The notes under the pieces: generated by a model
Databases searched by the model: none
What the model saw: the letters and a program-made list of their open reading frames with translations, nothing else
What the model was told of the DNA's origin: nothing
Position numbers and translations under genes: made by a program
Source of the DNA: Octopus vulgaris
Taxonomy: Eukaryota
Direction: 5' to 3'
NCBI GenBank assembly: GCA_951406725.2
Contig: OX597815.1
Span: forward strand, 2,294,001-2,358,000
DNA length: 64,000 nucleotides
Part shown: piece after piece, positions 4,521 to 11,459 of the stretch
How positions within the stretch are numbered: the first letter of the stretch is position 1
How the letters are laid out: each line of letters begins with the position of its first letter

Positions 4521-4674
4521 TATTGAGTGGGTAAGTTAAATCTGGGCGATTTCCTCAGCAATTCACGCAAGAAACTTGTTAGCGAAGTCTTGCAATAGCT
4601 GTTTAATGGTTAGACTTAATCAACCTTTGCCTTTCTTCACTGTGATTGACATAATTGGCTTTATATATATATAC

Positions 4675-4890
4675 TATATTAAATTAGAGATAAAACCACT
4701 ATTAGGTAAATCAAACAATGAAAAACTTAAGCCAATACATAAAATTAATTAATTAATATTATTTTAAATATATATCAAAAGTATTAAAAGTTTAATAAAA
4801 GTTAATGAGTAAAACACTACGATCGTTTCATGGCTGTCCAATTCATAATGATTCGAGTTAGGGTTACAGTAAATCTTCAGGTAATTGAAA
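4675..4890 (-). mobile_element. Decayed copy of the HHR-bearing element that forms the 9.2-9.6 kb palindrome
   Basis: Shares aaattagaga-aaaaccactatta...cttaagccaatacataaaat and cactacgatcgtttc with 9240-9355. The minus strand reads CTGAAGA...GAAACGATCGTA. Confidence 0.7.
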
Positions 4891-7721: not shown

Positions 7722-8146
7722 CAAAATGAGGATTCAGATAGAATCAGGTACTTGAAAAGATATGCCTCGGGTAGGGTTGGATAATCTCTGTAGTTCTGGC
7801 CTATGGTTAGTGAGTATCAAATAAGATATTTCAGTTGTGTTCACAGAGATAAGCAATCCTACGAGTATTTAGCGTTACTTTGAATATCACGATGCTCGTA
7901 GGTTGAAATACTAGTTTAGTCAAATGAATCGTCTCCCAGGTCATGTGTTTTTTTAAGACTGCTACTATTCTGTCGCTCTCTTATGCCGAACCACTGGGTT
8001 ACGAGCAGGTAAACACAGCTGACAAGTGGTGGTGGACAAACACACGCACACCACACACACACACACACACACAAATACATACATACATACATACATACAT
8101 ACATACGTACGTATGTATGTATGTATGTATGAATATATATATATAT

Positions 8147-8348
8147 AGGGTAAGTTCATGAAAGAAACAAAAGACGAAAGGAGGTGGTGTACAAAATAAA
8201 CAGATGTATTAGTATAACGCTCAGGAATAGAAAAATGCATTTTACGTTTCGAGCCTACGCTCTTCTACAGAAAGGGATACAGATAAAAACAAGGAGAGAA
8301 ACAAGGAGAGAAAAAAAATGTGTGTAGTGGCTAATGATCTATCATGGC

Positions 8349-8387
<39 letters not shown>

Positions 8388-8735
8388 TATAAGTAATACT
8401 AAGTAATTAAGGGTTTAGAAAGGATTTGCCTCACCACACACCGAGTTTAGAAATAGCAGTCAAAGAGTTATAGCTATTCTTTCTACTAAAAAGGGAGATC
8501 TCAGTAAAACCACAGCACTTAGAAGGCAAACGCAGGCAAGAGAGAAAGAAATGACGACAATCATACAATTAAAAAAAACAAAAGACGAAGACAGGTGGTG
8601 TATAAAACAAACAGAAGTATTAGTATAACGCTCAGGAATTGAATAAGTCTTTTACGTTTCGACCCTACGCTCTTCTACAGAAAGGGACACAGAAAAAACA
8701 AGGAGAGAAAAAATGTGTGTAGTGGCTAATGATCT

Positions 8736-8788
<53 letters not shown>

Positions 8789-8791
8789 ATA

Positions 8792-8824
<33 letters not shown>

Positions 8825-9075
8825 GTATATATATAGGGAGAGTTCACGAAAAAGACAAAAGACGAAGATAGGTGGTGTACAAAAAAAAAACAGATGTATT
8901 AGTATAACGCTCAGGAATAGAAAAAGTCTTCTACGTTTCGAGCCTACGCTCTTCCACAGAAAGGGACACAGAAAAAAACAAGGAGCGAAACAAGGAGAGA
9001 AAAAAATGTGTGCAGTGGCTAACGATCTATCATGGCGACTGCCATACAGAAGGGTCACATAGGAGAGCATGTTCG
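8147..9075 (-). mobile_element. Three same-orientation copies of a 170-240 bp HHR-motif element (about 8147-8352, 8570-8740, 8835-9075) separated by (TA)n
   Basis: Near-identical text gacgaagacaggtggtgt...ttagtataacgctcaggaa...tacgtttcgagcctacgctcttctacagaaaggga. The minus strand reads cttt-CTGTAGA-a-gagc-gtag-gctc-GAAAC-GTA-aaag. Confidence 0.85.
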
Positions 9076-9229
9076 TGTGAATGTATGTATGTAGTTGCTA
9101 GAAAAGCAGAACCAAATTCAAAGAACTTCGTCGCATATATATATATAATAATAATAAATATTAGGGAATAAATCCAAATTTACAAGGAAAAATCAGATTA
9201 AAATTGAATCCAATTTTATAGTAAAATAT

Positions 9230-9590
9230 TATATTATAATAAATTAGAGACAAAACCACTATTATGCAAATTAAACAAAGAAAGACTTAAGCCAATACAT
9301 AAAATAATTTATATAAATTAAAATTTAACAAATGAATAACCACTACGATCGTTTCGTGTCAGCACATCTTAGACATTCTTCAGGTGGTTTCTAAACCTTC
9401 TTAGCGAGTTATAAACTATGAAGGTTTAGAAACCACCTGAAGAATGTCTAAGATGTGCTGACACGAAACGATCGTAGTGGTTATTCATTTGTTAAATTTT
9501 AATTTATATAAATTATTTTATGTATTGACTTAAGTCTTTCTTTGTTTGATTTGCATAATAGTGGTTTTGTCTCTAATTTATTATAATATA
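9230..9590. repeat. Near-perfect fold-back palindrome (171-bp arms, 19-nt spacer)
   Basis: 9230-9400 is the reverse complement of 9420-9590. I saw only two C/T differences. Confidence 0.95.
9431..9482 (+). ncRNA. Type-I hammerhead ribozyme motif (mirror copy at 9338-9389 on -)
   Basis: aaccac-CTGAAGA-a-tgtc(taagatgtgct)gaca-c-GAAAC-GATC-GTA-gtggtt. Perfect 6-bp stem I, stem II, short palindromic stem III loop, GUA cleavage triplet. Confidence 0.8.
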
Positions 9591-9619
9591 TATATATATA
9601 TATACACACACACATACAC

Positions 9620-9704
<85 letters not shown>

Positions 9705-9915
9705 GTGTGTGTGTGTGTGTGTGGACATCCTTCAGTTTGGTCTTGCTCTTTTCTAGCGAGTAGGGGAAAAACAGAGCAGTCACAGCTTGAATGCTTTTCC
9801 TCATAAATCTGATTTATCACGACTGACCTGAGATTAAAATAACAACAACAACAACTACAACGACGACCACGAATTCCATAACATTTTCCCCGTTTAAACA
9901 ATACACATCTCTTAC

Positions 9916-10000
9916 CTTGTGTGGTCAATGCCTGAGAAAGGTGTAAAAGCGCTGCAGTCAACACCGTTGCAAATACAAGAAAATTCATGCTTGTTGCCAT
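9916..10000 (-). CDS. Probable first coding exon of a secreted or membrane protein (signal peptide), followed by a phase-1 intron
   Basis: ATG at 10000 gives MATSMNFLVFATVLTAALLHLSQALTTQ(G): hydrophobic core and SQA cleavage-like site, then AAG|GTAAGA donor at 9916/9915. Non-repetitive sequence. No downstream exon identified. Confidence 0.68.
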
Positions 10001-10065
10001 TACCAGTTTTAGTAGAAAGATTAATGGAGACCAGAGTTAAACTGTTTCATAACCACATGTGAAAC

Positions 10066-10245
10066 GTTGGTGACTTTCTTCCTGTATTTTTCTCTGTATC
10101 TTCTTTCTGAAGAGGAGCTTTGCTCGAAACGTAAAACCACATTTCTTTCCTTCTCTGAGCGTCTCCTAATACTTTGCAATATACCACGTCCATGCATTGT
10201 TGTCTTTTTGTGTTTGTTCTTCGTTTTTTTTGTTTGGATTTACTA
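10066..10245 (+). mobile_element. Short PLE-like terminal element with minimal HHR (10103-10137)
   Basis: ttt-CTGAAGA-g-gagc-ttt-gctc-GAAAC-GTA-aaa followed by ctgagcgtc...taatact and ending in (TA)n. Related to 26185-26365. Confidence 0.72.
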
Positions 10246-10267
10246 TATATATATATATATGTGTGTG

Positions 10268-10324
<57 letters not shown>

Positions 10325-10485
10325 ATATATATCATTATATATATATATATCTTTGTTCATTGGTTCATTGGTTGAAGTTTTGTAAATAATATTTCTGGTT
10401 AAAGGTTTTAGTATTTTGTTTGTATGTGTATCTGTTTGTGTATCTAATTATTATTTATTTAATTATTCTCTTAATTTCCCCATCT

Positions 10486-10527
<42 letters not shown>

Positions 10528-10677
10528 CTCTACAAATAAAGTATTATTTTAATGTTTATTATCAATATTGCGACCGTATTTCGACATATTTTACTTTCTC
10601 ACGATCAGATTAAATCAAAAAAAGAAAATTTTGTTTTTAATTCTTTCTTAAACGAATCTTCACGAGGAAATGGTATA

Positions 10678-10897
10678 TTTCTTTATTGCCCACAAGGGGC
10701 TAAACATAGAGGGGGCAGACAGAGGGATTAAGTCAATTACATAGACTCCAGTGCGTAACTGGTACTTAATTTATCGACCCCGAAAGGATGAAAGGCAAAT
10801 TTACCTCGGCGTAATGGGAACTCACAACGTAACGACAGACGAAATGCGGCTACGCATTTCGCCCGGCATGCTAACGTTTCTGCCAACTCGCCGCCTC
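10678..10897 (-). mobile_element. SINE
   Basis: Reverse complement of the family at 15950-16180. The flank cacgaggaaatggtat is duplicated on both sides (TSD). Confidence 0.85.
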
Positions 10898-11459
10898 ACG
10901 AGGAAATGGTATCCAACTTCAGAGAATTATTGCTGATCGAACATGAATTTCCTGCATTCGATTGTCAGATAAATTTATTCGATTTTTCTTCCTCCAACAT
11001 CATATTTGTGGAAAGAAGTCTGAAGGCACGTAGCTTAGAAGTTACGGTATTCGGCCTACATATGGAAGATTGTGAGTTCGATTCCCAGCGACACACAAAC
11101 ATAAACACACACATCCATATAAAGAGAAAGAGAGAGGGGGAGAGAGAGAATTTTCTGACCAATTCTACTTGACATCTTTTTTTTTAATAGATTATTTAGT
11201 GGAACACTTACCTTATGCATATTTGAAATATAATTTTCGTAACAATTTGCCTGTCCCTAAAGAAACTTTTTTCGTCAGATGAATTCATGAACATCAAAAT
11301 ATAGGTCGTTCAGAAAGATTCCACAGAGTTTAAAATCCATGGAACAAAATCATTTTCAGAGATTCTGCTACTATTCCAGCTGGCAGAATGAGTTTATCAG
11401 AATAGTGTATATTTGGTCAGAACAGAAAAAAATTGGGGTGAATAGAGTTTTTAGGAGGG

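What the first reader, a model, noticed from the sequence alone, without database searches (positions are those of the whole stretch)
9230..9590. 171-bp perfect hairpin carrying two mirror-image hammerheads, inside a putative host intron
The arms differ at only about 2 positions, so the structure is young or homogenised. Each arm contains a full HHR, so either strand's transcript holds one ribozyme plus its antisense, which would sequester it in dsRNA. It lies about 330 bp downstream of the signal-peptide exon donor. Long intronic dsRNA is a prime ADAR/siRNA substrate, relevant if this is a coleoid with extensive A-to-I editing (inference). The architecture matches the inverted pLTRs of Penelope insertions.
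Basis: partly seen in the sequence, partly recalled or inferred. Interest (0 to 1): 0.7.

Follow-up and report, generated by a model that had tools for sequence, protein, structure and literature searches.

The report
Twin-primed Penelope leader hairpin
The mirror-image DNA with a hammerhead-ribozyme motif on each strand is real and is one of dozens of similar inserts left in TA repeats by a Penelope-type jumping gene; the sister inserts suggest that each is likely built from two separate DNA copies of the element's spliced RNA leader, started at two fixed sites and joined head to head, which bears on an open question of how these elements copy themselves.

Summary
The hairpin is real: 171-bp arms, 2 mismatches, one hammerhead motif per strand. 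It is not unique. It is a young insertion of the 5' leader (pLTR) of a Hydra-clade Penelope-like element into (TA)n; the 44-nt ribozyme core has 114 exact matches in this genome. The architecture is published, and this scan noted it before on other DNA, in this genome too. What the family adds: the long arm lacks the parent's 1.3-kb GT-AG intron, so it is a copy of spliced RNA. Sister arms stop at a putative transcription start, often with an extra G, probably from the cap. Of 61 two-armed insertions, 60 pair one arm ending at the tail site with one ending about 80 nt upstream; in 17 of 60 neither arm could have templated the other. This favours two primings on a sense RNA over fold-back or antisense self-priming. 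The motifs are dimer-dependent hammerheads, not full ones. The host-intron claim is doubtful: exon 1 is duplicated 27 kb away, and the only exon 2 and the RNA contigs go with that copy. No ADAR footprint was seen in genomic copies. Ordinary as a locus, moderately useful as mechanistic evidence.

The parts
9148..9423 (-). Long arm (type A): cDNA copy of the element's spliced leader, from exon 1 through the hammerhead to the tail site about 50 nt before the parent ORF's ATG
9420..9590 (+). Short inverted arm (type B): same leader, ending at the internal site about 80 nt upstream of the tail site
9420..9423 (.). 4-nt microhomology (GAAG/CTTC) shared by the two arms at the head-to-head joint; the same joint recurs at L167 with arm roles swapped
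   Evidence: sequence
9401..9419 (-). 19-nt hairpin loop = most of exon 1 of the element's transcript, present only in the long arm
9396..9397 (-). Exon 1/exon 2 splice junction; parent copies hold a 1310-nt GTAAGT...TTTTAG intron here
9338..9389 (-). Dimer-dependent type I hammerhead motif, predicted cleavage after 9344
9431..9482 (+). Identical hammerhead motif on the other strand, predicted cleavage after 9476
9148..9229 (-). One-sided tail (82 nt) between the two end sites; holds a predicted hairpin also seen in an ORF-bearing sister element
9135..9147 (.). (TA)n target, left flank
9586..9701 (.). (TA)n/(CA)n target, right flank
9916..10036 (-). Copy of exon 1 of a host gene for a probably secreted protein (ATG 9988, donor 9915); a 97% identical copy at C2:2276971-2277142 (+) is the one followed by exon 2
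4665..4890 (-). Older, diverged B-type arm of a sister subfamily (82% over 108 nt) with a long stem II hammerhead

Best explanation
This is a young insertion into a (TA)n repeat of two head-to-head copies of the spliced leader (pLTR) of a Hydra-clade Penelope-like retrotransposon, likely made when the element's enzyme nicked both target strands and primed two separate cDNAs on one probably capped sense RNA. Shown: the parent structure (ORF, 3' UTR, exon 1, 1.3-kb intron, hammerhead, site B, site A, ATG), loss of the intron in the focal arm, the two fixed end sites, the one-A-plus-one-B rule and the microhomology joint. Inferred: one cDNA starts at the tail site A and the other at site B about 80 nt upstream; both run towards the cap, which lies only about 280 nt away; their 3' ends anneal by microhomology and are sealed. 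The hammerhead would not have cleaved the template. The insert carries no promoter and no ORF, so it is probably a dead end; any read-through RNA meets the antisense arm first and would lock the ribozyme in a 171-bp duplex.
For: Family: 114 exact matches to the 44-nt core, 0 for the reversed control. Parent: leader 80-88% identical to the pLTRs of ORF-bearing elements, e.g. the 840-aa P0001 with RIKWK, DKT, CxCX5C and CxxC..E..N..CxH, the Hydra signature in Craig et al. 2021. Among 90 insertions: 60 A+B, 1 B+B, 0 A+A, 29 with one arm scored; all 60 divergent. In 17 of 60 the tail-bearing arm starts more than 20 nt downstream of the other arm's start, and in 7 of 60 they share at most about 15 nt, so neither arm can be the other's template. 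Splice state: 84 spliced, 15 intron-retaining, 14 unclassified of 113 motif hits; 22 of 22 insertions with both arms classified agree (19 spliced, 3 unspliced; counted by eye). 82 of 84 spliced arms stop inside the short exon 1. Base before the putative start: G in 12 of 22 spliced arms, 0 of 28 unspliced genomic copies; p=2e-5 for 12 of 20 against the partner-arm background. Arms of one insertion share subfamily markers (41 of 43 for a short duplication). A sister-family insertion has the same unique 250-nt repeat junction in both arms, one ending at B and one at A. In vitro, an anole Penelope protein cuts and extends both strands, starts at two adjacent internal sites, is predicted to be a dimer and does not need ribozyme cleavage (Frangieh et al. 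2024).
Against: No ORF-bearing copy with this exact subfamily's pLTR was found; the link rests on sisters at 80-88% and on an RT fragment captured between the arms at L063 (95% to L125). Most of the extra G's lie within microhomology to the partner arm or in templated inserts; only about 4 are free of that confound (by eye), and the focal copy itself lacks the G. The start site is inferred from copy ends; no RNA 5' ends were seen. 30 of the 90 insertions were picked by likeness to the spliced long arm, which inflates spliced and A counts (in the other 60: 40 spliced, 15 unspliced arms, by eye). Only 3 private variants are shared by both arms against 216 unshared differences, so 'one RNA molecule' is not separated from 'one source locus'. 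For the focal copy alone fold-back of one cDNA would give the same sequence. Frangieh et al. saw no difference in start site between strands in vitro.
Confidence: 0.68

Rival explanations
1. Single priming with fold-back: one cDNA is primed at the tail, reaches the RNA 5' end, snaps back on itself at the GAAG microhomology and is extended on its own strand to site B.
For: Explains the focal copy exactly (long arm complete, short arm clipped, 19-nt loop) and the sharing of markers and splice state between arms.
Against: Cannot give the 17 of 60 insertions in which the short arm holds 5' sequence absent from the long arm, nor the 7 of 60 with almost no overlap, nor the swapped-role twin at L167.
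Confidence: 0.15
2. Self-priming on an antisense, unspliced template, as proposed for Adineta vaga Penelopes.
For: Proposed in print for head-to-head palindromes and intron retention (Arkhipova et al. 2013, passages); 15 arms here do retain the intron.
Against: Most arms are precisely spliced and end at a sense-strand start site with an extra G, which needs a processed sense RNA.
Confidence: 0.05
3. The whole hairpin is a non-autonomous element (MITE- or retrozyme-like) that is re-copied as a unit.
For: Many near-identical short copies; a few apex sequences recur (L001/L167, L002/L025/L164, L029/L033).
Against: Apices mostly differ; recurring ones often have arm roles swapped; no terminal conservation beyond the two priming sites; no head-to-tail hammerhead tandem as in retrozymes; promoter absent.
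Confidence: 0.06
4. The hairpin has been co-opted as an intronic dsRNA (ADAR or siRNA substrate, or ribozyme switch) regulating the neighbouring gene.
For: 171-bp near-perfect duplex 325 bp from a donor site. One DNA run shows a single exon-1 contig with the window-type flank, so the two assembled copies might be haplotypes of one gene. Extensive editing in coleoids is recalled, not tested.
Against: Young, one of many, no conservation shown. Exon 2 follows only the other exon-1 copy, and RNA contigs of X1, X3, X5 carry that copy's letters; the other copy lacks the insertion. No sense-strand A>G excess in genomic copies (17 of 8108 A against 26 of 11993 T>C), though this tests only the templates before insertion.
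Confidence: 0.04
5. Assembly artefact (fold-back chimeric read).
For: No contig of the runs laid spans the palindrome, as expected for short-read contigs in a repeat.
Against: Two differences between arms, asymmetric tail, microhomology joint and 60 other loci with the same biological end sites.
Confidence: 0.02

Closest known systems
Hydra clade of Penelope-like elements, incl. Hydra-1_Obim (Craig et al. 2021, PMC8557442; saw sections 11 and 15, passages, and supplement rows and alignment passages)
   Same: C-terminal endonuclease order, RWK, DKT, CxCX5C, CxxC/CxH around E and N, (TA)n targeting, hammerhead in pLTR, inverted copy at the 5' end, tail at one end only
   Different: Different family from Hydra-1_Obim by eye (not aligned); Asn-rich insert in the ORF; 82-nt tail rather than 30-40; multi-kb 3' region with promoter, exon 1 and a 1.3-kb intron; most short copies are spliced
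PAc (Poseidon, Anolis) in vitro system (Frangieh et al. 2024, PMC11167929; saw parts 1-2 of 4)
   Same: Two internal RT start sites bounding the tail, AT-rich targets, both strands extended, uncleaved RNA as template
   Different: There the sites lie 111-118 nt inside the ORF with no strand preference; here they lie upstream of the ATG, about 80 nt apart, and each insertion pairs one with the other
Adineta vaga Penelope inverted pLTRs (Arkhipova et al. 2013, PMC3846280; saw passages)
   Same: Head-to-head inverted pLTR overlapping the direct one, tail on one side, N-rich ORF inserts
   Different: Their proposed antisense self-priming does not fit the spliced, start-site-bounded arms here
Minimal/dimeric PLE hammerheads (Cervera and de la Pena 2014, PMC4209133; saw parts 1-2 of 4)
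   Same: Type I, short palindromic helix III, intron end just 5' of helix I as in D. virilis Penelope, pairs 100-700 bp apart on opposite strands already noted there
   Different: 10.1-11.1 is A.C here (A-U, U-A or A.A in sisters) rather than the conserved G-C
L1 twin priming and cap-derived G (Hancks and Kazazian review, PMC4859970; saw passages; author names recalled)
   Same: Two primings joined by small microhomology; untemplated G at full-length 5' ends
   Different: As recalled, L1 twin priming copies non-overlapping parts of the RNA; here both copies overlap and start at fixed element sites
Animal non-LTR retrozymes (bioRxiv 10.64898/2026.07.22.740005; saw part 1 of 5)
   Same: Short, non-coding, hammerhead-bearing, pLTR-derived
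   Different: Retrozymes are head-to-tail tandems; this is a head-to-head pair

Membership tests
EN+ Penelope-like element insertion | Sequence derives from a pLTR flanking an RT + GIY-YIG-type ORF | tested here: met
   Leader 80-88% identical to pLTRs next to intact or near-intact ORFs; exact subfamily's ORF copy not found
EN+ Penelope-like element insertion | Inverted copy at the 5' end, tail on one side only | tested here: met
   60 of 61 two-armed insertions A+B
EN+ Penelope-like element insertion | Spliceosomal intron in the pLTR/5' UTR | tested here: met
   1310-nt GT-AG intron in parent copies, absent in focal arm
EN+ Penelope-like element insertion | Target-site duplication | tested here: inconclusive
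   Both flanks are (TA)n; not discernible
Hydra clade | RWK motif, DKT, CxCX5C linker, CxxC and CxH around E and N, C-terminal EN | tested here: met
   P0001: RIKWK, SDKT, CTCRDKSNC, CYLC..E..N..CRH against the definition; read by eye
Hydra clade | (TA)n insertion preference | tested here: met
   132 of 143 end motifs followed by (TA)4+ within about 30 nt
Hydra clade | Phylogenetic placement of the RT | not tested
   No tree built; Pfam gave no significant family for P0001
Type I hammerhead, dimer-dependent | CUGANGA, GAAA, NUH core with helices I and II | tested here: met
   6-bp helix I, 4-bp helix II
Type I hammerhead, dimer-dependent | Palindromic loop 3 allowing a double hammerhead | tested here: met
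   Cofold minimum is the double-hammerhead, -27.8 against 2 x -9.1 kcal/mol; ACGATCGT, ACAATTGT or ACGATTGT in 19 of 21 recurrent variants
Type I hammerhead, dimer-dependent | G10.1-C11.1 pair | tested here: not met
   A.C in this subfamily; never G-C in 21 recurrent variants
Type I hammerhead, dimer-dependent | Self-cleavage | not testable with these tools
   Needs in vitro assay
Non-LTR retrozyme | Head-to-tail tandem of hammerhead-bearing monomers | tested here: not met
   Head-to-head pair at this locus; 60 of 60 A+B pairs divergent
Intronic ADAR substrate | Transcribed within a spliced host intron and edited | tested here: inconclusive
   Exon 2 and RNA contigs go with the other exon-1 copy; only contigs were available

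The most novel reading that the evidence does not exclude
These hairpins are a genomic record of how Penelope-like elements insert: a dimeric enzyme primes both target strands on one capped, spliced, uncleaved sense RNA, each strand from its own fixed start site, and joins the two cDNAs head to head. That one rule would explain inverted pLTRs, the one-sided tail and the mass of short copies (complete leader copies, not random 5' truncations), and would overturn antisense self-priming for this clade.
Probability: 0.55. Interest if true: 0.62.

Novelty: new member of a known kind. Interest (0 to 1): 0.4.

Why it matters
The locus itself is probably an inert stub. The family matters because published work calls the origin of PLE tandem/inverted structures an open problem (Craig et al. 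2021, section 15). A young family with two fixed end sites, spliced and unspliced copies, and many open ORFs of 820-860 codons in sister subfamilies gives a testable in vivo rule and a ready system for biochemistry. It would also mean that this genome gains long perfect hairpins as a routine by-product of PLE activity; their weight for RNA editing is untested.

Tried and rejected
Rfam found no hammerhead (0 at gathering over the window; 53 weak matches in 8000-11000, none a hammerhead family). Pfam found nothing significant for the RT fragment or P0001. My first reading of the RT as Naiad was dropped: domain order and motifs fit Hydra. No RNA holder was listed on record as RNA; all runs were contigs, so start sites, strand, editing and presence or absence of this insertion could not be read. 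ADAR footprint in genomic copies: none. No ORF of the family lies in the window. A search for an ORF-linked copy of the exact subfamily among 14 exact post-tail loci and about 20 ORF loci found only sister subfamilies. Exon 2 was sought in the window and the 36 kb beside it, and genome-wide at up to 2 mismatches: one copy only. The host protein was not identified. The other exon-1 copy looks like an empty site (plain (CA)n followed by a 61-nt match at 92% to window 7948-8007), but that match looks like a common repeat, so orthology of the junction is not proven. Paper searches for twin priming or two-strand priming in Penelope elements, for spliced versus unspliced templates and for antisense templates returned only the papers cited or unrelated ones; the library lacks most subscription papers (e.g. 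Arkhipova 2006, Evgen'ev and Arkhipova 2005 were not seen), and bioRxiv supplements are closed, so absence from print is not established.

Full report
Observation. The window has an inverted repeat with arms at 9230-9404 and 9416-9590. The registered duplex is 171 bp with two mismatches around a 19-nt loop. A hammerhead core reads from 9383 on the minus strand and from 9437 on the plus strand. Rfam did not report it. The left arm continues for 82 nt more, to 9148, and both ends run into (TA)n. The genome is 2.8 Gb in 227 contigs; an octopod host is an inference from size, repeats and earlier notes of this scan.

It is one of a family. The 272-nt long arm found 40 scored candidates at 94-100% identity, most with an inverted partner beside them. 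The 44-nt core has 114 exact matches and the reversed control none. I assembled 90 distinct insertions: 30 best matches to the long arm, 58 from the exact-core list and 2 more from the first list; 14 core matches were not listed and not examined. Arm ends fall at two sites: A (position about 266-272, the tail end) and B (about 188-194). Of the 90, 60 have one A arm and one B arm, 1 has B+B, none has A+A, and 29 have one scored arm. All 60 are head to head. Of 143 end motifs, 132 are followed by (TA)4+. The apex differs between most insertions. The focal apex, a 4-nt GAAG microhomology, recurs at L167 with long and short arms swapped, which points to independent use of the same microhomology and argues against an assembly chimera.

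The parent element. Some copies carry a 1310-nt GTAAGT...TTTTAG intron between CTCGCTAAGAAG and GTTTAGAAACCAC. The focal long arm has these joined, so it copies a spliced RNA. An RT fragment caught between two arms at L063 led to many long ORFs. One of them, P0001 (840 aa), has RT, an Asn-rich insert and a C-terminal endonuclease with RIKWK, DKT, CxCX5C and CxxC..E..N..CxH, the features by which Craig et al. 2021 define the Hydra clade. The leader is 80-88% identical to the pLTRs of such elements, and site A lies about 50 nt before their ATG. The order is ORF, 3' UTR, putative promoter, exon 1, intron, hammerhead, site B, site A, ATG. A sister copy (L125) shows a second splice from a 3' UTR donor to the same acceptor. 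I found no ORF-bearing copy with this exact subfamily's pLTR.

The template was a processed sense RNA. Of 113 motif hits, 84 were spliced, 15 intron-retaining and 14 unclassified; without the 30 loci picked by likeness to the spliced arm the figures are 40 and 15 (by eye). All but two spliced arms (both at L006) stop within exon 1. Among 22 spliced arms that reach A[C/G]TTCATA, 12 have G before it, while 0 of 28 unspliced genomic copies do; for the 20 that are not read-through copies p=2e-5 against the partner-arm background. An untemplated G marks cap copying in L1 and SVA (PMC4859970, passages). Caveat: only about 4 of these G's are free of microhomology or templated inserts, the focal copy lacks the G, and no RNA 5' ends were available.

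Two primings. In 17 of 60 A+B insertions the A arm starts more than 20 nt downstream of the B arm's start, and in 7 the arms share at most about 15 nt. There the B arm holds 5' sequence that A lacks and A holds tail that B lacks, so neither can have been copied from the other. Yet the arms of one insertion agree: in splice state 22 of 22 (by eye), in a short duplication marker 41 of 43, in a base marker 30 of 32; median arm divergence is 1.4% within and 3.1% between insertions. Only 3 private variants are shared, so one RNA molecule is not separated from one source locus. A sister-family insertion (L218) has two divergent arrays of one 250-nt unit with the same unusual junction, one ending at B and one at A. 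In vitro the anole PAc protein cuts and extends both strands, starts at two internal sites bounding the tail, is predicted to be a dimer and uses uncleaved RNA (PMC11167929), though it showed no strand preference for the sites. The simplest model is a dimer nicking both strands of (TA)n, priming one cDNA at A and one at B, and joining them by microhomology. For the focal copy alone, fold-back of one cDNA fits equally well. Antisense self-priming, proposed for Adineta vaga (PMC3846280), does not fit spliced arms.

The ribozyme. Helix I has 6 bp, helix II 4 bp, and helix III is a palindrome. Two copies cofold into the double hammerhead (-27.8 against 2 x -9.1 kcal/mol). Sister subfamilies keep loop 3 self-complementary in 19 of 21 recurrent variants, but none has G10.1-C11.1 and this one has A.C. 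Such PLE motifs were inactive as monomers and weak as dimers in the tests of Cervera and de la Pena. In a read-through RNA the motif is fully paired to its antisense. Cleavage from this locus is unlikely (inference).

Host context. The exon at 9916-10036 (-) encodes a signal-peptide-like start. An RNA-type contig of X1 leaves it at the donor and continues into a 30-nt exon that occurs once in the genome, at C2:2279033 on the opposite strand. That exon follows a second, 97% identical copy of exon 1 at C2:2276971, whose intron lacks the hairpin. Contigs of X3 and X5 match that copy without differences and join it to exon 2 across a GT..AG gap; X1, X3 and X5 are one study and their RNA status is a guess. 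The window's copy may be an orphan duplicate. Against that, DNA run X19 shows a single exon-1 contig with the window-type flank and mixed letters, so the two copies may be haplotypes of one gene. This is unresolved. Genomic copies show no sense-strand A>G excess; editing of the hairpin RNA itself was not testable.

Comparison and verdict. Inverted pLTRs with a one-sided tail, (TA)n targeting, pLTR introns and hammerheads are all published, and opposite-strand hammerhead pairs 100-700 bp apart were noted in 2014. Earlier notes of this scan describe the same hairpins in this and other genomes, and one note from another genome reads copy ends as start-to-primer copies; I reached my reading before seeing them. 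The locus is a new member of a known kind. The counted A+B rule, the non-overlap cases and the splice and cap evidence were not found in my paper searches, within the limits of the library. Interest 0.4.

Noticed in passing
L218:901-4115 (G000:C9:50396400-50399600): Two divergent tandem arrays (3.2 and 9.7 copies) of a 250-nt unit spanning the sister family's leader and ATG, sharing one unusual junction; one ends at site B, the other at site A. Looks like repeated copying of a small circular RNA or repeated template jumps.
   Followed up: partly
L219 (G000:C5:119297400-119300900): Long tandem array of an 85-nt tail-to-ATG segment behind an inverted B arm; a satellite seeded by a PLE insertion.
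   Followed up: no
L063:1262-2599: About 860 nt of RT coding sequence captured between the two arms, joined directly to the G-bearing 5' end of the long arm; suggests a template jump from the cap into ORF RNA.
   Followed up: partly
L125:6057-6330 and L130:6500-9640: Two splice donors (3' UTR and exon 1) share one acceptor just before the hammerhead; the 3' UTR splice removes the putative promoter.
   Followed up: partly
window 7948-11112 and G000:C2:2276134-2277546: Inverted duplicate of promoter region, exon 1 and intron start of a gene for a probably secreted protein whose contigs are deep in some runs; paralogue or uncollapsed haplotype unresolved; protein not identified.
   Followed up: partly
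window 8150-8350, 8570-8735, 8840-9040, 10095-10230: Remnants of another hammerhead-bearing repeat family (CTGAAGAGGAGC...GAAAC at 10107; decayed cores in the three others) clustered in the same microsatellite tract.
   Followed up: no
window 4665-4890 (-); L178-L180, L183: Sister subfamilies with much longer hammerhead stem II (about 35-55 nt); one older copy lies in this window.
   Followed up: partly
window 26228, 33999, 38630 (+), 37856 (-): Further CUGANGA...GAAAC hammerhead-like cores from the motif scan.
   Followed up: no
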